64,000 nucleotides of DNA. Origin: Patescibacteria group bacterium (GTDB taxonomy: Bacteria > Patescibacteriota > Minisyncoccia > Minisyncoccales > UBA10102). The notes below the pieces were generated by a model. It saw only the letters and a list, made by a program, of their open reading frames with translations, was not told where the DNA came from and ran no database searches. This document shows, in pieces, positions 3,422 through 38,591 of the stretch. Position numbers and translations under genes: made by a program. Numbering within the stretch: the first letter of the stretch is position 1; each line of letters opens with the position of its first letter. The stretch is taken from NCBI GenBank assembly GCA_022563395.1, contig JADFNM010000001.1:590342-654341 (forward strand), given 5' to 3'.

Positions 3422-3458
3422 TGAACCCCGTTAGAAATTAAGACAATGTTTATTATGT

Positions 3459-3953
3459 ATGAAAAGCGAAATTTCTAACGGGGTGGACCTCAAAAAACAA
3501 TTAAAAGAAGACCTGAAAACCTCCCTCAAAGAGGGGGACGAGGTTAGAACTGGCACCTTGAGAATGTTGATGGCTGCCATGGTGAACAAAGAAAAAGAAG
3601 CCCTCAGGCAAGCTCAGGGTAAAGATGAAGAACTTTCAGACGAGGAGATACAGGCAGTGGTGGCAGCTGAGGCAAAAAAGAGAAGGGAGGCAGAAGAAGC
3701 CTTTTTGAAAGGAGGAAGGCCCGAGCTTGCAGAAAAGGAAAAGCAAGAACTCAAGGTTCTTTTAACATACCTCCCAGAGCAACTCACACAAGACCAGATC
3801 AGAACCCTTGCGAAAGAAGCCATTCAAAAGACCGGAGCTGCAAGTATAAAAGACATGGGCAAGGTGATGGGTGAACTTACCCCCCAGATTAAAGGAAAAG
3901 CAGATGGCGCCTTGGTGGCAAATATTGTAAAAGACCTGTTGACTTCAAAATAG
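3459..3953 (+). CDS. GatB/YqeY domain protein
   Basis: 164 aa. Has the LKEDLKTSLKEGDEVRTGTLRMLMAAM.NKE pattern and the C-terminal MGKVMGEL....KADG pattern of the YqeY family. Confidence 0.8.
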   Translation: MKSEISNGVDLKKQLKEDLKTSLKEGDEVRTGTLRMLMAAMVNKEKEALRQAQGKDEELSDEEIQAVVAAEAKKRREAEEAFLKGGRPELAEKEKQELKVLLTYLPEQLTQDQIRTLAKEAIQKTGAASIKDMGKVMGELTPQIKGKADGALVANIVKDLLTSK

Positions 3954-24384: not shown

Positions 24385-24424
24385 CTAAACGAGATTTAAG
24401 CAGCACTGCTTAAATCTCGTTTAG
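24385..24424. repeat. P-family palindrome (copy at the left edge of the accessory region)
   Basis: CTAAACGAGATTTAAGCAGCACTGCTTAAATCTCGTTTAG, followed by TTATCCACAGGTTTT..CAGCTCTTTT. About 72 bp is repeated directly at 33165-33236. Confidence 0.85.
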
Positions 24425-24499
24425 TTATCCACAGGTTTTTCTCAACAGCTCTTTTTTAAATCATCTCGCAATCTGTAGACTAGAAAATTAAGATAGTCA

Positions 24500-24564
24500 G
24501 TTCGAATTCTACCCGCGGAGCTCGTAAAGTTGAACCAAAGAATCGCCAAGAAGGCGGTTTTTTG
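24500..24564 (+). repeat. Junction repeat J0 (right-half unit with hairpin and T-tract)
   Basis: GTTCGAATTCTACCCGCGGAGCTCGTAAAGTTGAACCAAAGAATCGCCaagaaGGCGGTTTTTTG. Confidence 0.8.
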
Positions 24565-24626
24565 TTAGACTTAAAATAGAATGAAAAGTCGAATATAATA
24601 GTTATTAAAATAACCAAAAAAATATT

Positions 24627-25052
24627 ATGAAAACTCTCATTGAGAAGGGGATCGTCTTCTTCGGCGCTCTCACGGTGTTCCTGCTGCTTCTTCACGCCAC
24701 GGACGAGATTGCGCGCGGCGCGGCCGCCCAGCAATACGCGATCGTCGGAGCCGGAGTGGCCGTCCTATTCTTCATCCTGCTGATGATCCTTTACGTCTTC
24801 GGCATCGGATGGGCCTGGAAGCAACGTAGGCTGGGCTACGGGATCGTCCTCGTGGCGTCCGCCGCCGCCTTCTTGCGGACCTTCGCCGTGATCCTCGGCT
24901 TGGGCAACCCGGATCTGGAGGCCCTCTTCGCTGCCTACGCCAGCGAGGCCGTAGGCGTCTTCTTCGTCTTCGTCTACCTGGCCATTGCCCTGACGAGCCT
25001 GATGGCTCTCTTCCTCTCCATCTACGCACTGGTTATCCGGAAGCGGGAATAA
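24627..25052 (+). CDS. Cassette 1: small 4-TM membrane protein, GC-rich
   Basis: 141 aa with four hydrophobic helices. In a hand count, one 60-nt line (24661-24720) has 40 G+C, far above its neighbours. Confidence 0.65.
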   Translation: MKTLIEKGIVFFGALTVFLLLLHATDEIARGAAAQQYAIVGAGVAVLFFILLMILYVFGIGWAWKQRRLGYGIVLVASAAAFLRTFAVILGLGNPDLEALFAAYASEAVGVFFVFVYLAIALTSLMALFLSIYALVIRKRE

Positions 25053-25231
25053 GGTTCGCAGGCCGAGGCAAAGCTGTTTACTGAACCAGTAGAAGTCCTC
25101 GTCGAAGTCAGGACTCTGGAGAATTACTGAGAAGTTACTATCGACCCCTGACTTTTTCGTATGGTTGAATTTCCGAACGCCTTCGCAAGCATTAACCGCA
25201 TGGTTCGCCCAGCGGCCTTTATCTTTGCACC

Positions 25232-25308
25232 AAACAGGTTCTAACGTCGTCCAGTAGGGGGAGCTCGTAAAGTTGAATCAAAGAATCGTCAAACAGGCGG
25301 TTTTTTGG
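25232..25308 (+). repeat. Junction repeat J1 (full short form)
   Basis: AAACAGGTTCTAACGTCGTCCAGTAGGGGGAGCTCGTAAAGTTGAATCAAAGAATCGTCaaacaGGCGGTTTTTTGG. Confidence 0.85.
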
Positions 25309-25321
25309 TAGAGTAGGAGAC

Positions 25322-26455
25322 ATGAAATACCTTCTATTCGCACTCATTGGAATTGTTGTTCTGGCAGGTGGGTTTTTCTTTTTCCATTTTCAAGGAAACC
25401 CTGGAGAAGAGGAACCCTTATTTCCTCAAAAGGAGGAGTCAATGCCTGGAGAAAGCATTGAAACTGGGGCATCAAAAAAGGAAGTCTTGGAACAAGAGGA
25501 ATCTTCTGCGTCAGAATCAGCCCCTGCAATTTCTCAAGTTGAAGAAGCAACTGAAGAGGTCGTACAAAAAGATTTTAGGATGGCCTTTGTGCTTTTAATT
25601 CGTAGTTCTTCTGATGCAACGCCAGGAAGAATAAATAAAATTAATGAAATCAAAAATGCCTTTCCGAATTCTTTCAAAACGGCAACAAGAAATTTAGCAA
25701 CGATGGATACATCTTCAGACATTGTAATAATGACTGTAGACTCGGGTCCTGACATTACTTCATTTCTATTTGATTGGGGTAAATATCCACAAAAGTTTTA
25801 TGAAGATCACGAAGACAACTTTGACTTTATAAGTTTCTATACAGCATTCGAAGATCAACAATCTCAAGCTCATTTACCAGTAAGCAATGCCATAAAGGGT
25901 ATTGGAAATGTTAACTTAATGAATTCAGCAAGAGGATATGGTTCAGGGGGTAGGCTAAAAGGATTAAATTTTATGGGTGATATTACAATATTCGAAAGAT
26001 TGCAGCTTTTAACTATAGAATCTGCATTAAATGCTTTAAAACATGAAACAGGTCATCAGTGGTGTTGCTATATAATGGACAGTAGAGAAGAAAATGGCAA
26101 TGTGCCATTAATACAGGAGTATGTTCACTGGAACTTCTTTTTGGACTTAAAAAGTATCAATGATGGCTATATTGATCCATTAGGGGGAACTGATTGGATT
26201 GAAGTAGAGAAAAATAAATTCAAAGTATCAGATCGGTTAAGATATATAGAAGCTCGGTATTCACCGCTTACCTTGTACTTAATGGGACTTTTGTCAGCAG
26301 AAGATGTGCCACCAATACCATTAATAAGACCCTTTGATTCAGTTATAGAAAAATCAACCTATCCTCCTAATGAAGTTGATGGGATTAAAGAATTTGTTTC
26401 CATGGAAGACATAATTGCAAGAGAAGGAAAGTGGAGATGTTGTTTTAGTCCTTAA
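25322..26455 (+). CDS. Cassette 2: membrane-anchored putative zinc metalloprotease (HExxH)
   Basis: 377 aa with an N-terminal TM helix, an acidic linker and LKHETGHQW (HExxH). The gene is AT-rich: one 60-nt line (25621-25680) has 17 G+C. Confidence 0.6.
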   Translation: MKYLLFALIGIVVLAGGFFFFHFQGNPGEEEPLFPQKEESMPGESIETGASKKEVLEQEESSASESAPAISQVEEATEEVVQKDFRMAFVLLIRSSSDATPGRINKINEIKNAFPNSFKTATRNLATMDTSSDIVIMTVDSGPDITSFLFDWGKYPQKFYEDHEDNFDFISFYTAFEDQQSQAHLPVSNAIKGIGNVNLMNSARGYGSGGRLKGLNFMGDITIFERLQLLTIESALNALKHETGHQWCCYIMDSREENGNVPLIQEYVHWNFFLDLKSINDGYIDPLGGTDWIEVEKNKFKVSDRLRYIEARYSPLTLYLMGLLSAEDVPPIPLIRPFDSVIEKSTYPPNEVDGIKEFVSMEDIIAREGKWRCCFSP

Positions 26456-26610
26456 CTTTCAATGTTCTTACGTGAACATATCGAGTAGCAGAAGAGGAGG
26501 GAACATTCTAGGTAGACGATATCATCCGTAGGGGGGGTCTCTTTTGGGGTGTAGGGGGGATCTAAGGAACGAGTTCTGGAGTATGGAGAATCTCCTGGTT
26601 CTCTCTTATC

Positions 26611-26684
26611 CAGGTTCTAACAGCCTCCACGCTCCGGAGCTCGTAAAGTTGAGTCAAAGAATCGCCACGATGGCGGTTTTTTGG
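26611..26684 (+). repeat. Junction repeat J2 (full short form)
   Basis: CAGGTTCTAACAGCCTCCACGCTCCGGAGCTCGTAAAGTTGAGTCAAAGAATCGCCacgatGGCGGTTTTTTGG. Degenerate GTAGGGGGG units lie just upstream at about 26535-26580. Confidence 0.8.
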
Positions 26685-26696
26685 TATACTAAAAAT

Positions 26697-27329
26697 ATGA
26701 AGAAGACTATCTTGGTTCTTTTTGGAGGTACAGCTATTATTGTAGGTGGACTCTTTGTGTACGATAGTTATATTGTTGATCAGAGACAGGATAAGGAAGA
26801 AAGGATCCAGGAAAGTTTAACACAAGAGATAGTGAAGGATCTTGGTATTAATATCGCAGACTGGCAAACCTACCGCAACGACGAGTTCGGATTCCAGATG
26901 AAATATCCTGAAGAATGGGAGGTGAAAGAATTTGAGACAAAAATTGATATTGGTATTTTTGGATTGCCTAAACATTATTTCGTTACTGTATCTAAAAGCG
27001 AAAACCCAGAAGGTCTAAATGGTAAACAATATGCTCAACAATGGCTAAGGAGGTTAATTCGTACTCTTCCAGAACAGACAATTATATCAACAAGCACTGA
27101 GGCGATTGAGGTAGGTGGATATGGTGGGTCTATAGTTCGAGATTTTCATATAGAGATAGAAGATGAGCCAAACCTTGATGTGATTTTCGTAGTCTTACCT
27201 GATCAAGAACTAATCTACCAAATCCAATTCCCAATAGGTGAAGGGCAATTAAGCAAGCGTATTCTAGATCCTGAAAAAAATTACAGAACTGCAAATCAAA
27301 TCCTCTCTACGTTTCAGTTTATTAAATAG
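26697..27329 (+). CDS. Cassette 3: secreted/anchored protein with ADWQTYRN-EFGF-KYP-W motif
   Basis: The ATG at 26697 gives MKKTILVLFGGTAIIVGG (TM). The motif ADWQTYRNDEFGFQMKYPEEWEV is shared with cassette 5. The track start at 26544 runs through J2 and is rejected. Confidence 0.7.
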   Translation: MKKTILVLFGGTAIIVGGLFVYDSYIVDQRQDKEERIQESLTQEIVKDLGINIADWQTYRNDEFGFQMKYPEEWEVKEFETKIDIGIFGLPKHYFVTVSKSENPEGLNGKQYAQQWLRRLIRTLPEQTIISTSTEAIEVGGYGGSIVRDFHIEIEDEPNLDVIFVVLPDQELIYQIQFPIGEGQLSKRILDPEKNYRTANQILSTFQFIK

Positions 27330-27330
27330 A

Positions 27331-27430
27331 AGCAGGTTCTAATAATCCTCCGACTTGTTTTAACACAGACTCAGGATATTTGATTTCTTCTATCCACCTA
27401 AAAGTTCGAAAATCGTCCCACCCGCGGAGC
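27331..27430 (+). repeat. Junction repeat J3 (left motif plus a second degenerate unit, no hairpin)
   Basis: AGCAGGTTCTAAT..., about 60 nt, then ...AAAAGTTCGAAAATCGTCCCACCCGCGGAGC. Confidence 0.65.
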
Positions 27431-27434
27431 AATC

Positions 27435-27463
27435 TTGACAATATCACAAAAATGTGGTATTGT
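27435..27463 (+). promoter_or_regulatory. Promoter of the cassette 4 small ORF
   Basis: TTGACA, 17-nt spacer, TGgTATTGT (extended -10). A TAAGGAG Shine-Dalgarno lies before the ATG at 27500. Confidence 0.55.
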
Positions 27464-27499
27464 TTTAGTAGACTGAATTTGTACAGTAAGGAGCTAAGG

Positions 27500-27679
27500 A
27501 TGGCAAAGAAGATTGTTGTAATTCAGCGTGGTGACCCAGGCTACACAGACTGGTATGCTTCCACAGAGGAGGGGGGAGGAATTGGAGCGGGAAGCAATGG
27601 TAGTACAGCAGCAGAGGCAGTTGGGAATCTTATACTCAACCATTCTAAGCTGTTCGACTGTGAAGTCGAAATCAAATAG
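27500..27679 (+). CDS. Cassette 4: small hypothetical protein (59 aa)
   Basis: MAKKIVVIQRGDPGYTDWYAST..., preceded by TAAGGAG. The track ORF start at 27380 runs through J3 and is rejected. Confidence 0.5.
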   Translation: MAKKIVVIQRGDPGYTDWYASTEEGGGIGAGSNGSTAAEAVGNLILNHSKLFDCEVEIK

Positions 27680-27742
27680 TCCCGTAGCAGAAAAGTTCCA
27701 TTAGGTTCAATTCTGTATGGGACTTTTCTGTTAGGAAAATAT

Positions 27743-27890
27743 AAAACAGGTTCTAACATCGTCTCGTCAGTAGGACCATTTCTCGATTTAAACCAGCCAT
27801 ATATTCTGAGTCCTCTAAAAGTATAATAAGCTTTGGACTGGGGAGCTCGTAAAGTTGAATCAAAGAATCGTCAAACAGGCGGTTTTTTGG
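27743..27890 (+). repeat. Junction repeat J4 (long form, 96 nt between AAC and GTT)
   Basis: The left part is AAAACAGGTTCTAACATCGTCTCGTCAGTAGG. After a variable centre, the right part GGGGAGCTCGTAAAGTTGAATCAAAGAATCGTCaaacaGGCGGTTTTTTGG is identical to J1. Confidence 0.85.
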
Positions 27891-27902
27891 TAGAATATAT
27901 CC

Positions 27903-29792
27903 ATGCAAAAGAATGATTTTGAACACACTCAACGAGAAACATCCGAGCCCACTTCTTTGGGCTGGAAGAGTGCTTGGAAGGTTACAAAGGAGGTATATAT
28001 ATGGATCATTGGAGTTAATCTCCTTCTCCTATTGTTCAGTGTGGTATTTGGGGGTGTGCTCGATCCATTACTCGCATTGCTTTCTATAGTTTTGCCGATT
28101 GCTGGTATTGTTGTTGGAATCAAAAAATCATTTCCTCAGGCACAGAGAGGATTTCCAATCTTCCGTACAGCCTTTCTTATTGGAGTAATACCACTGGCTG
28201 CATTGTTTTTGTTTGGGCTATGGGCTATTCTCATAAATCTAGATCATCTAAGAACAAATGGTCTAGCAGCAGTTGTCCTATTGGTTGGACAAATTTCTGA
28301 GTTTGCTTCCATAGGACTTTTCTCTTCCTTGGTTTTTGGTACTGTATCCTACTTTGTTCTCTTAAAGAAAAGAATTTCCACGGATACCTCTTTTAAATCT
28401 ACATCTTTAAAATTTCTCGGATTATTTTTTCTCTTACTATTTATTTATATTTTCATAGGAGCAGTGTTTGCTTCTCTTCTTTTCATAACTTCTGCAGCTT
28501 GGTCTAAAGATAGCAAGTCTCAAGAAAATATATCAGAAGTTGAAATTAGCAAGCAAGATGAAACAGCCGATTGGCAAACTTACCGAAACGAAGAGTTTGG
28601 GTTTGAAATAAAATATCCTGATCAATGGGGAATAAGAGAGACAGGCGATGGTTCTTTTGAAATTTATATTCAACAAACAGGTGTAAGTGATATTGGCTCA
28701 ATAGTCTTTACAGGAGATTCAAATATCGATACAGCAATACAAAACCATCTGGCAAGGTATGTTGTTGGAACGCTAATTCAGAGAGAGGAAAATATAAGCT
28801 TGGATGGGAAATATGGAAAGCTTGTATATCAAAATACAGGTGGACGGGATTTGCAGGAGGATGATTTGAGTAAATGGTACTTTGTTGTAAATAATGGACA
28901 AATACTTAAACTTGGTCTTTATTTCCGCCCAAAAGGTTATGACTATGATGAATTATTTGATTTAATGCTCTCCACGTTTCGGTTCATTGAAAATGCGAGG
29001 GTAACTCTACCAACTACTTGTAAAGACGAATTAGATGGGGTTCCTGTTATTACTTCAATCTCACCAGCTTCTGGGTTAGTAGGTACAGAGGTTGAAATCA
29101 GAGGATGTAATCTTGGAGGATTTGAAGGTGACCTCGATGCTGTATTTGTACGGAGCGACGGGGAAGAAATCCCGCTTTATGGTGGAACATGGTATCCAGG
29201 ATATGGGGGAGCAGAACCAGGAAAACTTATCAAGATAATTGTACGGCCATACTGTGAATCTGGCTCTGTAACTGGACGTTATTCTGGAATTACCTCACCA
29301 TGCGAAACAGTAAATGTAACCCCAGGTACGTACAAAGTTTATACAGAAGCTTGGGGGAAGAAGAGCAATGAAGCTCTTTTTATTATTAAGTCTTCAGAGA
29401 ATATGCAAACGATTAAACTTTATTATTATAATGAAGAACATGATCCTAACTTTGATTGTATAGCTGAAGCAGTTATTTCGGTTGAGCGAGAGATTCCTAT
29501 AACAAATACACCCATTCAAGATACAGTCAAACTTCTTATAGAAGGAAAATTAACAGTAGAAGAAAAAGCCGCCGGATTTTCAACAGAGTTTCCTCACCCA
29601 GATTTCGAACTTCTTGGTGCAAACCTTACAGATGATGGAATTTTGACATTAGACTTTCCAGAAGTCTTTGGATTTACTAGTGGAGGATCATGTAGGGTTG
29701 GTATATTGAATGCAGAGATCGAAAAAACAGTTAAACAATTCTCACAAGTTAAAGAAGTTAAGTACACAAACATAGGGATATTTCAGCCATAA
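27903..29792 (+). CDS. Cassette 5: polytopic membrane protein with extracytoplasmic ADWQTYRN-motif, IPT/TIG-like and GerMN-like domains
   Basis: 629 aa with about 5-6 N-terminal TM helices and ADWQTYRNEEFGFEIKYPDQW. PVITSISPASGLVGTEVEIRGCNLGGF is IPT/TIG-like. C-terminal IKLYYYNE...IPITNTPIQDTVKLLIEG is GerMN-like. Confidence 0.7.
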   Translation: MQKNDFEHTQRETSEPTSLGWKSAWKVTKEVYIWIIGVNLLLLLFSVVFGGVLDPLLALLSIVLPIAGIVVGIKKSFPQAQRGFPIFRTAFLIGVIPLAALFLFGLWAILINLDHLRTNGLAAVVLLVGQISEFASIGLFSSLVFGTVSYFVLLKKRISTDTSFKSTSLKFLGLFFLLLFIYIFIGAVFASLLFITSAAWSKDSKSQENISEVEISKQDETADWQTYRNEEFGFEIKYPDQWGIRETGDGSFEIYIQQTGVSDIGSIVFTGDSNIDTAIQNHLARYVVGTLIQREENISLDGKYGKLVYQNTGGRDLQEDDLSKWYFVVNNGQILKLGLYFRPKGYDYDELFDLMLSTFRFIENARVTLPTTCKDELDGVPVITSISPASGLVGTEVEIRGCNLGGFEGDLDAVFVRSDGEEIPLYGGTWYPGYGGAEPGKLIKIIVRPYCESGSVTGRYSGITSPCETVNVTPGTYKVYTEAWGKKSNEALFIIKSSENMQTIKLYYYNEEHDPNFDCIAEAVISVEREIPITNTPIQDTVKLLIEGKLTVEEKAAGFSTEFPHPDFELLGANLTDDGILTLDFPEVFGFTSGGSCRVGILNAEIEKTVKQFSQVKEVKYTNIGIFQP

Positions 29793-29820
29793 AAATTGCA
29801 AAGCGAACAATATTTCAGCA

Positions 29821-29981
29821 AAAACAGGTTCTAACTTCGTCCAGTAGCCCCCAGCAATTCCTCCATTTCTTTCATTTCATTCTTAATATTTACCCAATCA
29901 AGAGTTCTAAACTCGTTCAATAGGGGGATTTGATTAGCCTTATTATACTTTTTCAAGAATCGCCACGGAGGCGGTTTTTTG
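29821..29981 (+). repeat. Junction repeat J5 (long form with a tandem degenerate unit)
   Basis: AAAACAGGTTCTAACTTCGTCCAGTAGCCCCC..., then ...AGAGTTCTAAACTCGTTCAATAGGGGGA..., then ...AAGAATCGCCacggaGGCGGTTTTTTG. Confidence 0.75.
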
Positions 29982-29994
29982 ATAAGGTAGAAAT

Positions 29995-30213
29995 ATGGGA
30001 ACTTTGATAACCATTAAAACCTACCCAGATAGGACAGAGGCAGAACTTGTAAAAGGAGTTCTTGAGTCAAAAGGTATCAAAGCTATGGTTTCTGCAGATG
30101 ATGCTGGCGGGATGAATCCCGCCCTCTTATGGGCCACAGGGGGAGTGCGCTTACTCGTTAAGAAGAAAGATATTCAGATGGCAACTGAGGTTTTAGAAAG
30201 TTTTAGTAAGTAG
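29995..30213 (+). CDS. Cassette 6: DUF2007-like small protein (putative signal-transducing fold)
   Basis: 72 aa. The pattern ...TEAELVKGVLESKGIKAMVSADD...GGVRLLVKKKDIQMATEVL matches the DUF2007 family layout as I recall it. Confidence 0.55.
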   Translation: MGTLITIKTYPDRTEAELVKGVLESKGIKAMVSADDAGGMNPALLWATGGVRLLVKKKDIQMATEVLESFSK

Positions 30214-30223
30214 ATAAATCCAC

Positions 30224-30250
30224 GAAACAGGTTTTAACTTCGTTCCATAG
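30224..30250 (+). repeat. Junction repeat J6 (left motif only)
   Basis: GAAACAGGTTTTAACTTCGTTCCATAG. The right half and hairpin are absent. Confidence 0.55.
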
Positions 30251-30334
30251 ACGACTCAAGGCGATATTGTTCTTTCAAGAAGTGTGTAGTATCATTTAAT
30301 ATAGTCATAATTCCTTAATCTAATACAATACAAG

Positions 30335-31348
30335 ATGAATAAAATCATTGTAGTTATACTTGTGGTGGTGGCAGCGATATTGCTCATCAGTACTATTACG
30401 GGGTCACCAACTGAGTCTCTTACTAAGACAACGTATGCCTCTATTCCTGATTCAGCTTTTGGGCCAGTTATTCCAGAAAAAGGATACCGCGTTGAAGAAA
30501 TAGGCGATGGCCTTTACTGGGTAACTGAAGGAGTCTACCATATGATGTTTTTAACAACTGGAGAAGGGGTTATCGTTGTTGATGCTCCGCCATCCATTGG
30601 AGAAAATATATTGAAAGCCATTGCAGAAACAACTGACGAACCCATAACTCATGTTATTTACAGTCACTCGCATGCAGATCATATCGCTGCAGCAAGTATG
30701 TACCCAGAAAATGCAATATATATTGCTCATGAAGAAACTGCTTTGAGATTAGCTCAAGATAGACCTTTTGAATTTGGTTTGTTTGTGGGAGGCTCTGATG
30801 TTCCAGATCCTACGGTAACCTTCTCAGACACCTATACATTAACTGTCGGCACGCAAACATTAGAGCTCGAGTACAAAGGACCTGCCCATAGACCAGGCAA
30901 TATCTTTATCTATGCTCCTCAGCAAAAAGTGTTGATGTTTATTGATGTTATCTTCCCCGGATGGACACCGTTTAAATGGTTAGCCGTTGCGGAAGACGTG
31001 CCTGCCTTTGTTGATGCTCATGATTGGGTATTAAGCTATGACTTTGATGCATTAATCAGCGGGCATGTAGGACGTTTAGGAACAAGAGAAGATGTTGAAA
31101 TGCAAAAAGAGTATATCTTAGATACTCAAGCTAATGCAGCGAAAGCACTACAAACAGTTGATTTTAGTGCTATTGCGGCGGAAATTGGGTTTTCAAATGT
31201 ATGGTTACTATTTGACACCTATTTAAATGCTGTCAGCGAAGAATGCGCAAAACTAACAGAGGAAAAATGGGTAGATAGATTAGGTGCGGTTGATGTATTT
31301 ACCAAAAGTCATTGTGATAAGTTAGTTGAGAGCTTAAGAATTGATTAG
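30335..31348 (+). CDS. Cassette 7: secreted metallo-beta-lactamase-fold hydrolase
   Basis: 337 aa with an N-terminal TM/signal sequence. Has the HxHxDH motif in HVIYSHSHADHIAA. Confidence 0.8.
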   Translation: MNKIIVVILVVVAAILLISTITGSPTESLTKTTYASIPDSAFGPVIPEKGYRVEEIGDGLYWVTEGVYHMMFLTTGEGVIVVDAPPSIGENILKAIAETTDEPITHVIYSHSHADHIAAASMYPENAIYIAHEETALRLAQDRPFEFGLFVGGSDVPDPTVTFSDTYTLTVGTQTLELEYKGPAHRPGNIFIYAPQQKVLMFIDVIFPGWTPFKWLAVAEDVPAFVDAHDWVLSYDFDALISGHVGRLGTREDVEMQKEYILDTQANAAKALQTVDFSAIAAEIGFSNVWLLFDTYLNAVSEECAKLTEEKWVDRLGAVDVFTKSHCDKLVESLRID

Positions 31349-31425
31349 TCTTATGGGGCTAGTAATCCTCAAAATACTGTAATCATAGTTTAATTTTAAA
31401 AGCGTTGACTCTCTGTTTTATTGAG

Positions 31426-31500
31426 AAAACAGGTTCTAACGTCGTCCAGTAGGGGGGAGCTCGTAAAAGTGAACCAGAGAATCGCCAAGTAGGCGGTTTT
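31426..31500 (+). repeat. Junction repeat J7 (full short form)
   Basis: AAAACAGGTTCTAACGTCGTCCAGTAGGGGGGAGCTCGTAAAAGTGAACCAGAGAATCGCCaagtaGGCGGTTTT. The TGGTAGAGT box is displaced to 31524-31532. Confidence 0.8.
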
Positions 31501-31569
31501 GAGTTTACACTGAGTACTCGAAGTGGTAGAGTGAAGTAAAGAGTTTCTTAAACCAATATCTACACGTTT

Positions 31570-32502
31570 ATGAAAGCAGTTCAAATTAATAAATATGGCG
31601 ACAACAGTGTCGTTGAAGTCAATGAGAAAGCAGCCAAACCAGAGGTGTCTGCTGGTACAGTTTTAGTGGAAGTCCACGCCGCAAGCGTTAATCCTGTGGA
31701 CTGGAAAATCCGGGAAGGATATCTTAAAGAGATGATGCAGCTTGAGTTTCCAGCCACCCTGGGGGTTGATTTTTCAGGTGTAATAGCAGAGGTTGGTGAG
31801 AGTGTTTCCGGGTTTAAGCCAGGGGATGAAGTCTATGGCATGGCCAGCGCCATGACTGGCGGTTCGTTTGCTGAATTTATAATTGTACCATTTGCATCAG
31901 TAGCCCTTAAGCCAAAAAGCGTCTCGCATAGTGAGGCTGCGGCCGTCCCACTTACGGGATTAAGTGCGTTGCAAGTCTTAAAGGACCAGATGAATATTTC
32001 CAACGGACAAAAAGTACTAATTCATGGCGGTGCTGGTGGAATCGGCACGTTGGCAATTCAGATAGCAAAACAGCTTGGCGCTGAAGTTGCAACAACCGCA
32101 AGTAAAGAGGATAGTGACATTGTGAAAGAATTGGGTGCGGATACGGTTATTGATTATAAGAATGAAAAGTTTGAGGATATGGTGAAAGACTACGATGCGG
32201 TTTTTGACACTATCGGCGGTGAAACATATCAGCGATCATTTCAAGTACTCAAAAAGGGTGGAGTTATCGTTTCCATGGTCGAGAAGCCGAATGAAGAACT
32301 GATGAAGCAATACGAAGTTGAGGCGAAGATGCAATTTACTCAACCCAACGGCGCGCAGCTTGCAGAACTTGCCACCTTGGTTGATGAAGCGAAGATGAAA
32401 ATAAAGATTGACCGCGCATTTCCCTTGGATGCAGTAAAAGAAGCACTTGATTATTTACAAAACAGCCACCATCAAGGCAAGGTGGTGATTACTGTTAAAT
32501 AA
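31570..32502 (+). CDS. Cassette 8: NADPH:quinone oxidoreductase / MDR-family zinc-type dehydrogenase
   Basis: 310 aa. Has VLVEVHAASVNPVDWK, a GxGxxG-like cofactor loop (IHGGAGGIGTLAIQ) and C-terminal GKVVI. Confidence 0.85.
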   Translation: MKAVQINKYGDNSVVEVNEKAAKPEVSAGTVLVEVHAASVNPVDWKIREGYLKEMMQLEFPATLGVDFSGVIAEVGESVSGFKPGDEVYGMASAMTGGSFAEFIIVPFASVALKPKSVSHSEAAAVPLTGLSALQVLKDQMNISNGQKVLIHGGAGGIGTLAIQIAKQLGAEVATTASKEDSDIVKELGADTVIDYKNEKFEDMVKDYDAVFDTIGGETYQRSFQVLKKGGVIVSMVEKPNEELMKQYEVEAKMQFTQPNGAQLAELATLVDEAKMKIKIDRAFPLDAVKEALDYLQNSHHQGKVVITVK

Positions 32503-32534
32503 TAAGTAAGTTTTTTTGATTGTTATTTGCCTAT

Positions 32535-32612
32535 AAAACAGGTTCTAACGTCGTCCAGCAAGGGGAGCTCGTAAAGTTAAGCCAAAGAATCGCCATGCAG
32601 GCGATTTTTTGG
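32535..32612 (+). repeat. Junction repeat J8 (full short form)
   Basis: AAAACAGGTTCTAACGTCGTCCAGCAAGGGGAGCTCGTAAAGTTAAGCCAAAGAATCGCCatgcaGGCGATTTTTTGG. The G-to-A change in the 3' arm keeps the stem paired. Confidence 0.85.
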
Positions 32613-32624
32613 TAGCTTTAAGAT

Positions 32625-33053
32625 ATGCAGACTAAGCTTTTCTTGAAAGAAACGGTTCTTCTTACAAAGTCTTTTGATGCACATCAAGATTGGGAGGTTC
32701 CAATCCCCGGATTTTTTATAATTGCCTCAAAAGATACTACAAAAAAATCAATAGCTGAGTTTACAAGTGAAGAAGTAAAAGAGCTTGGTAGTGTAATCCA
32801 TAGAGTACGGGTGGGGATGCGAGAAGTATTAGACATAAAAGATGTATATCTATTACAGAACGAAGCTTCCAAACACGGGTTTCACGTCTGGATGTTTCCT
32901 CGTTATTCATGGATGGAGAAGTTTGGATGGAGCCCTAAGTCTATAGCTTTGATTATGGAACATGCAAACAAACACATGAAAACAGACGGTAATATTAAAG
33001 AAGTAAAGGATGCGGTTATTCGGGTAAGAGAATATCTTGAAAACAGGTCCTAG
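32625..33053 (+). CDS. Cassette 9: HIT-like fold protein
   Basis: 142 aa. Has a degenerate histidine-triad-like segment HGFHVWMFPR. The stop codon lies inside the J9 left motif (GAAAACAGGTCCTAG). Confidence 0.55.
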   Translation: MQTKLFLKETVLLTKSFDAHQDWEVPIPGFFIIASKDTTKKSIAEFTSEEVKELGSVIHRVRVGMREVLDIKDVYLLQNEASKHGFHVWMFPRYSWMEKFGWSPKSIALIMEHANKHMKTDGNIKEVKDAVIRVREYLENRS

Positions 33054-33156
33054 TATCATTTCACCAACAATTCTTCTATTTCTCTCATCAAGTTTTCAGG
33101 GTTTTCAATAGCTTCTATCCACCTAAAAGTTCTAAACATGTCCCATAGGGGGGAGC
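33039..33156 (+). repeat. Junction repeat J9 (terminal: left motif plus a second degenerate unit)
   Basis: GAAAACAGGTCCTAG..., about 70 nt, then ...AAAAGTTCTAAACATGTCCCATAGGGGGGAGCT. It abuts the palindrome at 33165. Confidence 0.7.
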
Positions 33157-33164
33157 TACTTCCG

Positions 33165-33205
33165 CTTAAACGAGATTTAAGCAGCACTGCTTAAATCTCG
33201 TTTAG
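33165..33205. repeat. P-family palindrome (array / LTD-module boundary)
   Basis: CTTAAACGAGATTTAAGCAGCACTGCTTAAATCTCGTTTAG followed by TTATCCACAGGTTTTCCTCAGCAGCTCTTTT. It is a direct repeat of 24385-24457. Confidence 0.85.
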
Positions 33206-33282
33206 TTATCCACAGGTTTTCCTCAGCAGCTCTTTTCAACCCAACTCAAAACCCTGTACAATAGAAAAGGTGTGTCGAATAC

Positions 33283-33345: not shown

Positions 33346-34008
33346 ATGCAAAAACAAGTGCTTATTATAGGGGCAATCCTTCTAGTGATTGTTATTGGAG
33401 GGATTTTTTTGTTGGTGAATCAAACAGAAACTAAATCTCGTTTAGGAGAACCTGAATACAGTACCACCCCAACCCAGTGGAGCCAAGCCGAAGATTACAA
33501 AATAGAAGAAACTCCCACCGGCACCGTTGTGGCGAACGAAAAAGCTGGCTTCAGCTTCAAAGTCCCTGAGGGGTGGAGTGTGGAAGGAGAGGAGGGGATT
33601 ACGGTAGGAGAATATGCACTTGTAATCCTTTCTTCTGAGGCAGAATTTGAAGAAGATCAGTATGGCAATAAAACTACATTTCTCAGAGGATGTGCTATTA
33701 GCTTAGAAACCTTATATCAGAAAGACGAGGTTGTTTCTGTCAAGAATTTAATTGATACTTATAATGAGAAACCCGAGGCAAAACCAGAAGACGAAAGCAT
33801 TATTATTGTTGATAATCAGTCAGCTCTTAGGGCGATTTTCGTACCAGAAGACCTAGAGATTTTAGAAAAAATCGGAGAGTTTATTCAAATACGAGTTCCA
33901 ATTTCTGAAGAAACTCTAATAGGGTTTGGGATAAGGATGAAGCCAGAATACAGATCTGATTGCATTGCTGAATTCGACAGCTTTATCTCAAGTTTCTCCA
34001 TTAACTGA
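33346..34008 (+). CDS. Secreted/anchored hypothetical protein
   Basis: 220 aa with an N-terminal TM helix (VLIIGAILLVIVIGGIFLLV). Contains a half P-family element in-frame (CTAAATCTCGTTTAGGAG encoding KSRLG) at 33431-33448. Confidence 0.65.
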   Translation: MQKQVLIIGAILLVIVIGGIFLLVNQTETKSRLGEPEYSTTPTQWSQAEDYKIEETPTGTVVANEKAGFSFKVPEGWSVEGEEGITVGEYALVILSSEAEFEEDQYGNKTTFLRGCAISLETLYQKDEVVSVKNLIDTYNEKPEAKPEDESIIIVDNQSALRAIFVPEDLEILEKIGEFIQIRVPISEETLIGFGIRMKPEYRSDCIAEFDSFISSFSIN

Positions 34009-38443: not shown

Positions 38444-38484
38444 CTTAAACGAGATTTAAGCAACATTGCTTAAATCTCGTTTAG
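38444..38484. repeat. P-family palindrome (right boundary of LTD module)
   Basis: CTTAAACGAGATTTAAGCAACATTGCTTAAATCTCGTTTAG, starting 6 nt after the stop of the giant gene. Confidence 0.85.
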
Positions 38485-38564: not shown

Positions 38565-38591
38565 GGCGTCCAGTTCCCCCTACTGGACGCC
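38565..38591 (-). terminator. Intrinsic terminator of the minus-strand HTH gene; carries a 15-nt core of the cassette junction repeat in inverted orientation
   Basis: Stem GGCGTCCAGT/ACTGGACGCC with a 7-nt loop and a T-rich tract on the minus strand. The minus-strand sequence CGTCCAGTAGGGGGA (38575-38589) is identical to the J1/J7 core. Confidence 0.6.

What the first reader, a model, noticed from the sequence alone, without database searches (positions are those of the whole stretch)
24500..33156. Integron-like array of nine single-ORF cassettes separated by a conserved ~75-bp junction repeat, with no recombinase in view
**Seen in the sequence:**
- Ten copies (J0-J9) of one junction sequence separate nine + strand ORFs of 59-629 aa.
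- The consensus is AAAACAGGTTCTAACGTCGTCCAGTAGGGGGAGCTCGTAAAGTTGAATCAAAGAATCGCC-N5-GGCGGTTTTTTGGTAGA.
- The ORFs have unrelated predicted functions: 4-TM protein, HExxH protease, secreted proteins, DUF2007-like, MBL-fold hydrolase, quinone oxidoreductase and HIT-like.
- By eye I found no further copy elsewhere in the 64 kb, except a 15-nt core in inverted orientation at 38575-38589.
- The left end reads TTCTAAC. The right part reads GTTGAAT, GTTGAAC, GTTGAGT or GTTAAGC.
- The AAC-to-GTT distance is 26-28 nt in short junctions (J1, J2, J7, J8) but 96 nt in J4.

**Established knowledge:** integron attC sites have RYYYAAC and GTTRRRY ends around a variable centre. Arrays lacking an integrase (CALINs) exist.

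**Inference:** this is a recombination-built cassette array in a CPR-like genome.

**Caveats:**
- The core is shorter than classical attC sites.
- I could not find convincing L-box pairing by hand.
- About 40 nt 3' of the putative crossover point is also conserved, which classical cassettes do not show.
- It may therefore be a different, undescribed cassette/recombination system.
Basis: partly seen in the sequence, partly recalled or inferred. Interest (0 to 1): 0.85.

Follow-up and report, generated by a model that had tools for sequence, protein, structure and literature searches.

The report
Serine-recombinase gene-cassette array at a tRNA remnant
Nine single genes in this candidate-phyla-radiation genome are separated by copies of the attachment site that a large serine recombinase family uses to insert DNA at the 3' end of tRNA genes, so the array resembles an integron in layout but rests on different, apparently undescribed machinery that is widespread in these bacteria.

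Summary
Ten junctions separate nine co-oriented ORFs, and they occur only at 24.5-33.2 kb.

The junction is not an integron attC. Its left part ("M33": AAACAGGTTCTAAC-N-TCGTCCAG + N5 + GGAGC) mimics a tRNA T-arm and acceptor 3' strand. The outer motif AGGTTC sits 5 bp further out than in a real tRNA, which is the published attP-versus-attB relation for large serine recombinases (LSRs).

A large LSR family (more than 2,400 homologues) has genes that end exactly on this site. The genes read either into a real tRNA 3' end or into M33.

J0 is a decayed tRNA-Asn. In relatives, intact tRNA-Asn genes anchor similar arrays.

M33 occurs in 99 stretches of GTDB genomes, mostly CPR. It is typically found in same-strand arrays (median spacing 864 nt, mostly one ORF per segment) downstream of tRNA genes.

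The right part of the junction is a hairpin plus an extended -10 promoter.

The window encodes no recombinase. The array is absent from sister species and identical in four near-clonal contigs, so here it is probably a stable, partly decayed relic.

Verdict: a recombination-built cassette array, LSR/tRNA-based and integron-like only in topology. Whether single cassettes move individually is not shown.

The parts
24386..24455 (.). Left copy of a 70-nt direct repeat. It consists of a 38-nt perfect palindrome (TAAACGAGATTTAAGCAGCACTGCTTAAATCTCGTTTA) followed by GTTATCCACAGG... and brackets the island.
24468..24521 (+). J0: decayed tRNA-Asn pseudogene, 3' part only (…TTAAG…CAGTTCGAATTCTACCCGCGGAGC). 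This is the former B-type arm and core, i.e. the anchor of the array.
   Evidence: 23-nt match to the tRNA-Asn 3' end with 3 mismatches. Comparison with the real tRNA-Asn genes of L005, L073, L091 and L119. ARAGORN finds no tRNA in the window.
24517..24569 (+). T-module after J0: GGAGC + TCGTAAAGTTGAAC + hairpin (AGAATCGCC-N5-GGCGGTTTTTT) + TGTTAGACT (-10-like).
24627..25052 (+). Cassette 1 ORF, 141 aa, membrane protein, no Pfam match.
25232..25264 (+). J1 M33 site: P-type arm AAACAGGTTCTAACGTCGTCCAG plus acceptor-like core TAGGGGGAGC.
   Evidence: (E=5.8e-11)
25260..25312 (+). J1 T-module (hairpin plus TGGTAGAGT). The ATG lies 7 nt after the -10-like box.
25322..26455 (+).
26610..26640 (+). 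J2: partly decayed M33 (CCAGGTTCTAACAGCCTCCACGCTCCGGAGC).
26636..26688 (+). J2 T-module. The scan predicts a promoter, TCGCCA-17-TATACT with TG.
26698..27329 (+). Cassette 3 ORF, about 210 aa counted from the ATG that follows the module. PsbP_2-like.
27331..27430 (+). J2b long-form site. Distal unit GCAGGTTCTAAT. Proximal variant-2 P arm AAAAGTTCGAAAATCGTCCCA (27400-27420) plus core CCCGCGGAGC, identical to the tRNA-Asn acceptor end.
27431..27463 (+). D-module: TTGACA-17-TATTGT promoter. It is homologous to the sequence directly downstream of the real tRNA-Asn in L005.
27503..27679 (+). Cassette 3b ORF, 58 aa.
27741..27846 (+). J3 long-form site. Distal M33 AAACAGGTTCTAACATCGTCTCG, a decayed proximal unit, and core GGGGAGC.
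   Evidence: (E=4.6e-6)
27842..27894 (+). J3 T-module, identical to that of J1. Predicted promoter TCGTCA-17-TAGAAT with TG.
27903..29792 (+). Cassette 4 ORF, 629 aa (PsbP_2-like, TIG, Germane domains).
29822..29928 (+). J4 long-form site. Distal M33 (29822-29844) and proximal variant-2 P arm AAGAGTTCTAAACTCGTTCAA (29900-29920) plus TAGGGGGA.
29956..29983 (+). J4 hairpin plus T-run, followed by TGATAAGGT.
29995..30213 (+). Cassette 5 ORF, 72 aa, DUF2007.
30224..30254 (+). J5: decayed M33 (GAAACAGGTTTTAACTTCGTTCCATAG).
   Evidence: E=6.8e-4
30335..31348 (+). Cassette 6 ORF, 337 aa, MBL-fold hydrolase. The same cassette (86% aa identity) lies directly after tRNA-Asn in L119.
31427..31460 (+). 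J6 M33 site, intact, with core TAGGGGGGAGC.
31456..31505 (+). J6 degenerate T-module.
31570..32502 (+). Cassette 7 ORF, 310 aa, zinc-type dehydrogenase/quinone oxidoreductase.
32536..32568 (+). J7 M33 site, intact, with core CAAGGGGAGC.
   Evidence: (E=1.1e-11)
32564..32616 (+). J7 T-module. The hairpin folds with z = -3.1.
32625..33053 (+). Cassette 8 ORF, 142 aa, no Pfam match.
33040..33156 (+). J8 long-form terminal site. Decayed distal unit, then variant-2 P arm AAAAGTTCTAAACATGTCCCA (33125-33145) plus core TAGGGGGGAGC. No right-hand module follows.
33167..33236 (.). Right copy of the 70-nt direct repeat.

Best explanation
**What it is.** The array is a tandem series of small, mostly single-gene integrative cassettes laid down next to a tRNA-Asn gene. 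That gene is now a pseudogene (J0).

**How it was built (inferred).** The recombinase is a CPR-wide family of large serine recombinases (LSRs) that integrate DNA at the 3' end of tRNA genes.

**What each junction contains.**
- A P-type (attP-like) half-site: AAACAGGTTCTAAC-N-TCGTCCAG, or its variant AAGAGTTCTAAAC..GTYCAAT.
- A core copied from the tRNA acceptor 3' strand (…GGAGC). The crossover lies at or next to GGAGC.
- A right-hand module that belongs to the next cassette. It is either a hairpin overlapping an extended -10 promoter placed 6-9 nt before the ATG (T-module), or a TTGACA-17-TATTGT promoter (D-module). Each cassette therefore appears to be an insulated, self-expressed unit.

**How the site works (inferred).**
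- The recombinase reads the universal tRNA T-arm as its B-type half-site. It reads M33 as the matching P-type half-site, with the outer motif 5 bp further out.
- The LSR is not encoded in the window. If still present, it acts in trans from elsewhere in the genome or from a visiting element.

**State of this copy.** In this genome the array is probably a stable, partly decayed relic: the tRNA anchor and about half of the sites are degenerate.

**Shown versus inferred.**
- Shown: site anatomy, its linkage to tRNAs and to LSR gene ends, its distribution in arrays, and reuse of cassettes in other arrays.
- Inferred: catalysis by the LSR, insertion of cassettes one at a time, and promoter activity.
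For: **1. tRNA anchoring**
- L005 has a real tRNA-Asn. Its 3' end and downstream promoter are homologous to window J0 and J2b.
- L119, L073, L039 and L091 have an intact tRNA-Asn followed by cassettes and M33 sites.
- In all 14 GTDB loci that hold both a tRNA and an M33 site, the tRNA is on the same strand and upstream.

**2. Hybrid nature of M33**
- The last 7-9 nt match the acceptor strand of the local tRNA: Asn ..GGAGC; Gln in L027, 13/14 nt; Trp in L045, GCCCCTGC 8/8.

**3. Half-site geometry**
- The inner motif GTCC is 7 nt from GGAGC in both the tRNA and M33.
- The outer motif AGGTTC is 2 nt from GTCC in the tRNA but 7 nt in M33 and in the variant arm.
- That is a 5-bp shift. Rutherford et al. 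2013 describe the same shift for the zinc-ribbon motif in LSR attP versus attB (PMC3783163).

**4. LSR genes end on the site**
- The L095 LSR (Resolvase + Recombinase + Zn_ribbon_recom domains) stops inside M33.
- Among the 120 best of more than 2,400 homologues, 56 stop in the antisense of a tRNA T-stem (..GLRG*), 33 read through an antisense tRNA (..QGSNLRP..), and at least 17 carry a tail encoded by the P arm (..LDxFRTLDW..).
- The window's long-form junctions encode the same peptide on the minus strand.
- Distant phage LSRs show the same tails.

**5. A complete element**
- L110 is a whole 10-kb element: tRNA-Asn overlapped by the LSR stop codon, then HTH_17 and restriction-modification genes, then a variant P arm + GGAGC at the far end.

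**6. Breakpoint position**
- L005 and L006 are unrelated to the left of M33, differ within the acceptor part, and are identical for more than 120 nt from GGAGC onward.

**7. Arrays are common**
- 99 GTDB stretches match the motif, against about 4 expected from pattern length and database size.
- 46 locus-strands have at least 2 sites, with up to 8 sites in 5 kb. Median spacing is 864 nt.
- 57 of 99 inter-site segments hold exactly one ORF. ORFs are co-oriented with the site 136:41.

**8. Cassette reuse**
- The MBL cassette occurs with 86% aa identity directly after tRNA-Asn in L119, and with 80% identity with other neighbours in L118.

**9. Variable locus**
- Sister species (82-85% identical flanking protease) lack the array at this position.
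Against: - No LSR or any other recombinase gene is in the 64-kb window. The rest of the genome could not be examined.
- Four contigs with an identical flanking protein have identical cassette order, so there is no strain-level polymorphism here.
- The array is not next to a functional tRNA, and several sites are decayed.
- Only 4 of about 100 GTDB loci with M33 hold an LSR within 8 kb, and only one of those directly abuts a site.
- Canonical LSRs recombine only attP x attB. Serial insertion into an already occupied site needs a relaxed specificity that is not demonstrated.
- No conserved P' half-site is seen to the right of GGAGC across junctions.
- The exact crossover dinucleotide is not mapped.
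- The array could equally be what remains of nine larger elements after deletion.
Confidence: 0.72

Rival explanations
1. The array is the decayed remnant of serial integrations of full-size, LSR-carrying elements (about 10 kb, as in L110). Deletions removed each recombinase and most cargo, leaving one gene plus the att scar. On this view single-gene cassettes are not themselves mobile units.
For: - Full-size elements with the same ends exist.
- Several window sites and the tRNA anchor are decayed.
- The array is invariant in four near-clonal contigs.
- Tandem arrays with remnants are known from tRNA islands (PMC7192596; tycheposon preprint).
Against: - The 22-nt core is perfectly conserved in more than 100 copies across CPR classes.
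- Arrays reach 8 sites in 5 kb and most segments hold exactly one co-oriented ORF. Repeated, tidy deletion to a single gene is an unlikely route to that pattern.
- Each cassette carries a conserved promoter module abutting the core.
- The MBL cassette recurs as the same small unit in other arrays.
Confidence: 0.2
2. M33 is the site of a tyrosine recombinase (a Xer-like or phage-type integrase targeting tRNA 3' ends), and the link to LSR genes is incidental.
For: - tRNA genes are the classical targets of tyrosine integrases (PMC4383910 abstract).
- Tyrosine recombinase genes lie within 8 kb of M33 in L080, L085 and L088. In L088 the gene starts 65 nt to the right of a site.
Against: - Only 3 loci show this, and the position is not consistent.
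- The T-stem-like inverted repeat in M33 encloses 12 nt, too long for a 6-8-bp tyrosine-recombinase overlap region (sequence plus general knowledge).
- The 5-bp outer-motif shift is the LSR signature.
- Hundreds of LSR genes terminate exactly on the site or on a tRNA end.
Confidence: 0.05
3. This is a classical integron cassette array without an integrase (CALIN), and the junctions are attC sites.
For: - The layout is single-ORF and co-oriented.
- RYYYAAC-like (TTCTAAC) and GTTRRRY-like (GTTGAAT) strings are present in the short junctions.
Against: - No attC-like fold is predicted on either strand.
- No Rfam match is found at E<=5.
- The spacing between the two strings is too short.
- The homology breakpoint is at GGAGC, not at GTT.
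- GTTGAAT is absent from most junctions elsewhere.
- The cassettes carry their own promoters.
- No IntI-type gene is present.
Confidence: 0.01
4. The junction is only a reused intergenic regulatory unit (terminator plus promoter, REP- or MITE-like repeat) spread by duplication, with no site-specific recombination involved.
For: - The right part is hairpin- and promoter-like.
- A lone M33 sits between htrA and clpB in L007.
Against: - Sites are strictly same-strand, arrayed, downstream of tRNAs, and hybrid with the local tRNA acceptor.
- They form the 3' end of LSR genes.
- The left part has no predicted structure.
Confidence: 0.02

Closest known systems
Tandem arrays of integrative genetic elements at tRNA genes (Islander/TIGER-type genomic islands; Prochlorococcus tycheposon islands)
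   Same: - Serial site-specific integration next to a tRNA gene leaves same-strand att repeats that contain tRNA 3'-end sequence.
- Cargo accumulates in a strain-variable island.
- Remnants without an integrase are common.
- A minority of tycheposon-like elements use large serine recombinases (PMC7192596).
   Different: - The repeat here is not a displaced tRNA fragment. It is a conserved P-type half-site (a T-arm mimic with a 5-bp shift) joined to only the acceptor strand.
- The units are about 0.5-2 kb, mostly one ORF, and each has its own promoter module.
- No integrase is present per unit.
- The associated recombinase is an LSR whose ORF spans the crossover.
Staphylococcal cassette chromosome (SCC) composite islands at rlmH (CcrAB/CcrC large serine recombinases)
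   Same: This comparison rests on my own knowledge.
- LSR-driven integration occurs at the 3' end of a conserved gene.
- Tandem elements are separated by short direct repeats of the integration site.
- Units without a recombinase (pseudo-SCC) persist and can be moved in trans.
   Different: - The target here is a tRNA, not a protein-coding gene.
- The repeat is a 33-nt half-site plus core.
- The cassettes are far smaller.
- The host is CPR.
Integrons (IntI tyrosine recombinase, attI, attC)
   Same: - The topology matches: an anchor site followed by many co-oriented, mostly single-ORF cassettes, each ending in a conserved recombination site.
- Arrays can occur without a recombinase in view.
   Different: - There is no attC fold.
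- The recombinase class is different.
- The anchor is a tRNA gene rather than attI/Pc.
- The cassettes carry their own promoters.
Phage and ICE large serine integrases (phiC31, Bxb1, A118/LI)
   Same: - The domain architecture is the same (Resolvase, Recombinase, Zn ribbon).
- The attP and attB half-sites share motifs, with the outer motif shifted by 5 bp.
- An HTH_17 gene that may be a directionality factor lies next to the integrase gene in L110.
   Different: - The B arm is the universal tRNA T-arm.
- The integrase ORF crosses the crossover point, so its C-terminal tail changes with integration state.
- Sites occur in long chromosomal arrays.

Membership tests
Integron / CALIN | attC sites are imperfect inverted repeats (R''-L''...L'-R') of about 57-141 nt that fold as a bulged single-strand hairpin. 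| tested here: not met
   - The left 48 nt of J1 give z = -0.45 (top strand) and +0.30 (bottom strand).
- The only stable structure is the downstream hairpin of the T-module.
- No Rfam match was found.
- The dedicated attC model of IntegronFinder could not be run.
Integron / CALIN | Cassette boundaries (the crossover) lie at G|TT of the R' box. | tested here: not met
   The L005/L006 homology breakpoint and the module boundaries fall at GGAGC, 12 nt upstream of GTTGAAT.
Integron / CALIN | An IntI-type tyrosine recombinase with attI and the Pc promoter (absent by definition in a CALIN). | tested here: not met
   tblastn with tyrosine recombinases from related loci finds nothing in the window. 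The whole genome was not available.
Integron / CALIN | Mostly promoterless, co-oriented, single-ORF cassettes. | tested here: inconclusive
   Co-orientation and one ORF per cassette are met. The cassettes carry promoter-like modules, so they are not promoterless.
Large serine recombinase att system | A recombinase with Resolvase, Recombinase and Zn-ribbon domains is physically linked to the site. | tested here: met
   - This is met in related loci, not in the window.
- The L095 and L110 LSR genes end on the site or on the tRNA.
- Tail classes of 120 homologues agree.
- The window has no LSR.
Large serine recombinase att system | attP and attB half-sites share an inner motif at the same position and an outer (ZD) motif 5 bp further out in attP. 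| tested here: met
   GTCC is 7 nt from GGAGC in both the tRNA and M33. AGGTTC is 2 nt from GTCC in the tRNA and 7 nt in M33. The reference rule comes from PMC3783163.
Large serine recombinase att system | A 2-bp central crossover dinucleotide shared by both partner sites, with a recognisable second half-site (P'/B'). | tested here: inconclusive
   - The crossover is narrowed to GGAGC or the base before it.
- No conserved right half-site is seen across junctions.
- The T-module resembles the LSR-gene P' arm only weakly (11/18 nt, read).
Large serine recombinase att system | Demonstrated recombination activity on these sites. | not testable with these tools
   This needs an in vitro or in vivo assay.
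tRNA-targeted genomic island (tandem IGE array) | An intact tRNA gene at one end and a repeat containing tRNA 3'-end sequence at the other. | tested here: inconclusive
   - The window has only a tRNA-Asn pseudogene.
- Relatives have an intact tRNA.
- The repeat shares only the acceptor strand with the tRNA.
tRNA-targeted genomic island (tandem IGE array) | Each unit carries its own integrase. | tested here: not met
   None of the nine cassettes encodes a recombinase.
REP / MITE-like dispersed intergenic repeat | Copies are scattered genome-wide in both orientations, independent of tRNAs. | tested here: not met
   - In the window, sites occur only in the array and on one strand.
- Elsewhere, only 2 loci have sites on both strands, and the tRNA is always upstream on the same strand.

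The most novel reading that the evidence does not exclude
CPR/Patescibacteria, and some neighbouring lineages, possess a general gene-capture platform analogous to the integron but built from different parts.
- A large serine recombinase, supplied in trans, inserts small, promoter-bearing, mostly single-gene cassettes one after another at the 3' end of tRNA genes.
- The conserved 23-nt T-arm mimic acts as the cassette-borne site, the analogue of attC.
- The tRNA acts as the anchor, the analogue of attI.
- The recombinase's own C-terminal tail switches with integration state, because its ORF crosses the crossover point.
Probability: 0.4. Interest if true: 0.88.

Novelty: new variant of a known kind. 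Interest (0 to 1): 0.74.

Why it matters
- CPR bacteria have tiny genomes, and how they acquire and shuffle accessory genes is poorly understood. The searchable literature describes their 'genomic islands' only by compositional prediction (PMC12455944).
- A conserved, easily searchable 33-nt site would give a concrete, testable mechanism for gene flux in about a quarter of bacterial diversity. It marks cassette arrays next to tRNA genes in many CPR classes and is tied to one recombinase family.
- It would be a second, independently evolved integron-like architecture, based on a serine rather than a tyrosine recombinase.
- It offers a family of LSRs whose attB is the universal tRNA T-arm. That is of interest for genome engineering.
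- For this window specifically, it explains the low-GC block of unrelated genes, some with their closest relatives in SAR324 and Thaumarchaeota.

Tried and rejected
- **tRNA and Rfam scans of the window.** No tRNA was found, no family reached its gathering score, and nothing relevant appeared at E<=5.
- **Right-part pattern in GTDB genomes and IMG/VR.** Zero hits in both. JGI metagenomes gave only 2 hits. The hairpin/promoter module in this exact form is therefore lineage-restricted, unlike M33.
- **Plus-strand small ORF.** I considered that the junction encodes KTGSNVVQ(*/Q)GELVKLNQRIAKQAVFW on the + strand, perhaps with TAG read-through, because substitutions looked synonymous. I dropped this: copies carry frameshifts and insertions, and the minus-strand LSR-tail origin explains the conservation.
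- **Independent minus-strand genes.** The small ORFs overlapping junctions (24480-24734, 27753-27932, 31396-31584) were considered as genes. I rejected them as relics of recombinase tails.
- **DNA uptake sequence.** Rejected because there are too few copies per genome and they are strictly arrayed.
- **Recurrent neighbouring recombinase.** Clustering 815 ORFs from about 100 loci gave no dominant family. LSRs appear in 4 loci and tyrosine recombinases in 3.
- **Strain-level cassette polymorphism at this locus.** None was found.
- **Conserved right half-site.** k-mer enrichment to the right of GGAGC found only hairpin words and TTGAC words.
- **Literature.** Searches for a prior description found none.

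Full report

Yes. The repeat finder and pattern searches recover the junction repeat only between 24.49 and 33.16 kb, always on the + strand. The 31-nt right part has 5 matches and the 24-nt left part has 4, against 0 in shuffled sequence. Ten junctions separate nine + strand ORFs of 58-629 aa. Their Pfam content is unrelated: two PsbP_2-like proteins, one of which also carries TIG and Germane domains; DUF2007; MBL-fold hydrolase; zinc-type dehydrogenase; four ORFs have no match. The 'inverted core' at 38575-38589 is at chance level (E=18).

Three things were missed.
- The junctions come in short, long (two site-like units 60-95 nt apart) and degenerate forms.
- J0 differs from the other junctions.
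- A 70-nt direct repeat (97% identical) brackets the whole block at 24386-24455 and 33167-33236. The block also has lower G+C than its flanks.

**2. The lead that changed the interpretation.**

The right-part pattern had no match in GTDB genomes or IMG/VR and two matches in JGI metagenomes. One of these, L005, carries a genuine tRNA-Asn. Its 3' end (GGTTCGAGTCCTACCCGCGGAGC) and the promoter just downstream are homologous to window J0 (CAGTTCGAATTCTACCCGCGGAGC) and to J2b. L005 and L006 carry different genes between the same junction types. J0 is therefore a decayed tRNA-Asn. ARAGORN finds no tRNA anywhere in the window.

**3. Anatomy of the left part ('M33').**

A scan of GTDB species representatives with AACAGGTTYTAACNTCRTNCAG found 99 stretches, against roughly 4 expected from pattern length and database size. 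Nearly all are in CPR classes (Saccharibacteria, Nealsonbacteria, Paceibacterota, Doudnabacteria, Falkowbacteria, Kaiserbacteria and others), with a few in Omnitrophota and other bins.

Alignment of 132 copies gives A-AACAGGTTCTAAC-N-TCGTCCAG, then about 5 variable nt, then GGAGC in about 75% of copies. Nothing is conserved beyond that on either side.

The variable segment plus GGAGC has the length and position of a T-stem end, a 7-nt acceptor 3' strand and a discriminator base. Where a tRNA is in view, this segment copies that tRNA:
- Asn-type ..GGAGC in most copies;
- GCCCCGCA next to tRNA-Gln in L027 (13/14 nt);
- GCCCCTGC next to tRNA-Trp in L045 (8/8 nt).

In all 14 loci holding both a tRNA and M33, the tRNA is upstream on the same strand. 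M33 is therefore a hybrid: a conserved, element-borne arm joined to the host tRNA's acceptor strand.

**4. Which recombinase?**

In L095, a 498-507-aa protein with Resolvase, Recombinase and Zn_ribbon_recom domains is encoded on the opposite strand and stops inside M33 (…NQPIWLRLLDDVRTCLV*). It has more than 2,400 homologues at E<=1e-10. The conserved body of these proteins ends …NQP(I/T)(G/W)L(R/P). The L-R/P codons are the reverse complement of the acceptor/GGAGC core.

Beyond that point, the 120 best homologues fall into these classes:
- 56 stop at once (..GLRG*), which is the antisense of a tRNA-Asn T-stem;
- 33 read through an antisense tRNA (..QGSNLRP.., ..LDSNQ.., ..VGIEPTT..);
- at least 17 carry ..LDxFRTLDWxxI.. 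or ..LDDVRTC..;
- 14 are truncated or unclassified.

The third tail is the minus-strand translation of M33 and the long-form junction. The window's long-form junctions give the same peptides: LLNEFRTLDWVNIK.., GWDDFRTFRWIEEI.., LWDMFRTFRWIEAI... Phage LSRs at only 37% identity show the same tails.

L110 shows a whole element:
- a tRNA-Asn overlapped by the LSR stop codon;
- an HTH_17 gene and restriction-modification genes;
- about 10 kb away, a variant P arm (AGAGTTCTAAATGTGTCCAAT) + GGAGC, followed by host sequence.

**5. Half-site geometry.**

In both the tRNA and M33, GTCC lies 7 nt from GGAGC. AGGTTC lies 2 nt from GTCC in the tRNA but 7 nt from it in M33 and in the variant arm (read). 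Rutherford et al. 2013 showed that the zinc-ribbon-domain motif of LSR sites lies 5 bp closer to the centre in attB than in attP, while the inner motif stays in place (PMC3783163). The tRNA T-arm thus behaves as a B-type half-site and M33 as the cognate P-type half-site. Because GGTTCRAnYC is universal in tRNAs, this would also explain how one family targets Asn, Gln and Trp genes.

**6. Where is the crossover?**

L005 and L006 are unrelated to the left of M33. They share the M33 arm and differ in the acceptor part (CTGTCCCTC versus GCAGCCCGC). From GGAGC onward they are identical for more than 120 nt. The same right-hand modules follow both real tRNA ends and M33 sites:
- the T-module (hairpin plus extended -10);
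- the D-module (TTGACA promoter);
- a 'GGCTAGTGAGG…' module.

The R/P alternation in the LSR tails places the variable/constant boundary one base before GGAGC.

**7. Arrays are the rule.**

- 46 locus-strands have at least 2 sites.
- There are up to 8 sites in 5 kb (L030).
- L039 has a tRNA-Asn followed by six sites bounding five single-ORF cassettes.
- Median spacing is 864 nt.
- 57 of 99 inter-site segments hold exactly one ORF.
- ORFs are co-oriented with the site 136:41.
- Only 2 loci have sites on both strands.

The layout in the window is thus a widespread CPR architecture.

**8. Cassette reuse and locus variability.**

The MBL cassette (window 30335-31348) recurs at 86% aa identity in L119, directly after rpoD, a 127-aa gene, tRNA-Asn and a T-like module. 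Homology runs from about 65 nt upstream of the ATG to about 35 nt past the stop. It recurs at 80% identity in L118, with a multicopper oxidase as neighbour and an M33 site 42 nt downstream. Its next-best homologues (66-77%) are in SAR324 and Nitrososphaerales, which indicates horizontally acquired cargo.

At the window's own locus, relatives whose flanking protease is 82-85% identical lack the array entirely (L007, L009, L113-L116). Four contigs with an identical protease have the same nine cassettes.

**9. The right part of the junction.**

The only stable predicted structure is the hairpin CAAAGAATCGCC-N5-GGCGRTTTTTTGG (z down to -3.2). The left 48 nt are unstructured on both strands. The promoter scan finds TCGYCA-17-TAGAAT/TATACT with an upstream TG in J2 and J3, and TTGACA-17-TATTGT in J2b. 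The ATG follows the -10-like box by 6-9 nt in J1, J2, J3, J4 and J7, which suggests leaderless or very short-leader transcripts. This last point is inference.

**10. What remains open.**

- No recombinase gene is in the window, and the rest of the genome could not be read.
- Canonical LSRs recombine only attP with attB, so serial insertion into an occupied site needs relaxed specificity. By my own knowledge this is known for staphylococcal Ccr recombinases. It is not shown here.
- No conserved right half-site is evident.
- The nine units may be true mini-cassettes moved in trans, or trimmed remains of larger elements. I favour the former because of the perfect conservation of the site, the one-ORF regularity and the promoter adaptors.
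- In this genome the anchor tRNA and about half of the sites are decayed, so the array is probably a stable relic. It may have been moved here as a block, which the 70-nt flanking repeat hints at but does not explain.

**11. Comparison and novelty.**

The mechanism class is known: site-specific tandem integration at a tRNA gene (PMC7192596; tycheposon preprint). So are LSR attP/attB rules.

What appears to be undescribed is the combination of three things:
- an LSR family that uses the tRNA T-arm as its B arm;
- a recombinase ORF that crosses the crossover point;
- long arrays of promoter-bearing single-gene cassettes punctuated by the P-arm site across CPR.

Literature searches found no description. 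It is not an integron by any defining feature tested, but it has the layout of one.

Noticed in passing
window 24386-24455 and 33167-33236; also 38446-38483: A 70-nt direct repeat (97% identical; 38-nt perfect palindrome plus GTTATCCACAGG, which contains a DnaA-box-like TTATCCACA) brackets the pseudo-tRNA and the array. The palindrome alone recurs after the 1473-aa LTD gene. It may be a gene-end terminator, and the duplication may mark insertion of the whole island as a block. This is unexplained.
   Followed up: partly
L073 ~985-950(-), L039 after tRNA-Asn, L017, L064 ~2582-2620, L077: A third conserved right-hand module (GGAGC-AGGCTAGTGAGGnnTTCGGGAGACCGAGnnGCC) follows both real tRNA-Asn genes and M33 sites in several CPR genomes. 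Its nature (small RNA, binding site or half-site) is unknown.
   Followed up: no
LSR homologues P0076-P0195; L095 465-1988(-); L110 10001-11470: The LSR ORF crosses the recombination core. Its C-terminal tail is therefore 20-40 aa (..LDxFRTLDW..) next to a P arm and only 1-3 aa (..LRG*) next to a tRNA. This could couple recombinase properties to integration state.
   Followed up: partly
window 26856-26919 vs 28566-28629; ORFs 26698-27329, 27903-29792, 33346-34008: Cassettes 3 and 4 and the 220-aa gene just outside the array share a PsbP_2-like domain. Cassettes 3 and 4 also share a 64-nt stretch at 80% identity, so these are paralogous secreted proteins inside and outside the island.
   Followed up: no
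window 30335-31348: The MBL-fold cassette protein has 66-77% identical homologues annotated in SAR324, Nitrososphaerales and Saccharospirillaceae. This suggests cross-phylum transfer in a marine setting.
   Followed up: partly
L034 ~3430-3470 and ~5930-5970 (-): Two M33 sites have identical flanks for at least 150 nt, which means an exact tandem duplication of a 2.5-kb cassette in a Saccharibacteria MAG. It could be unequal recombination between sites or an assembly artefact.
   Followed up: no
L007 7008-7040: A lone M33-like site (E=3.4e-8) lies between htrA and clpB in a sister species that lacks the array downstream of the protease gene.
   Followed up: no
L010 14706-14727(-) (IMG/VR UViG_3300009529_003397): A prophage-like contig (terminase, portal, capsid) has an M33 site 90 nt from its end. 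This is consistent with phages using the same attachment system.
   Followed up: partly
window 24480-24734(-), 27753-27932(-), 31396-31584(-): Minus-strand ORFs of 59-84 aa overlap junctions. They are best explained as open frames left by recombinase-tail coding sequence, not as genes.
   Followed up: yes
L113-L116, L007 just after the protease gene: Sister species encode a small basic ORF (MAKTKKGKKIVEVHEHKRKLSKGKRIVVREHRRSTPN) at the position where the window has the island.
   Followed up: no
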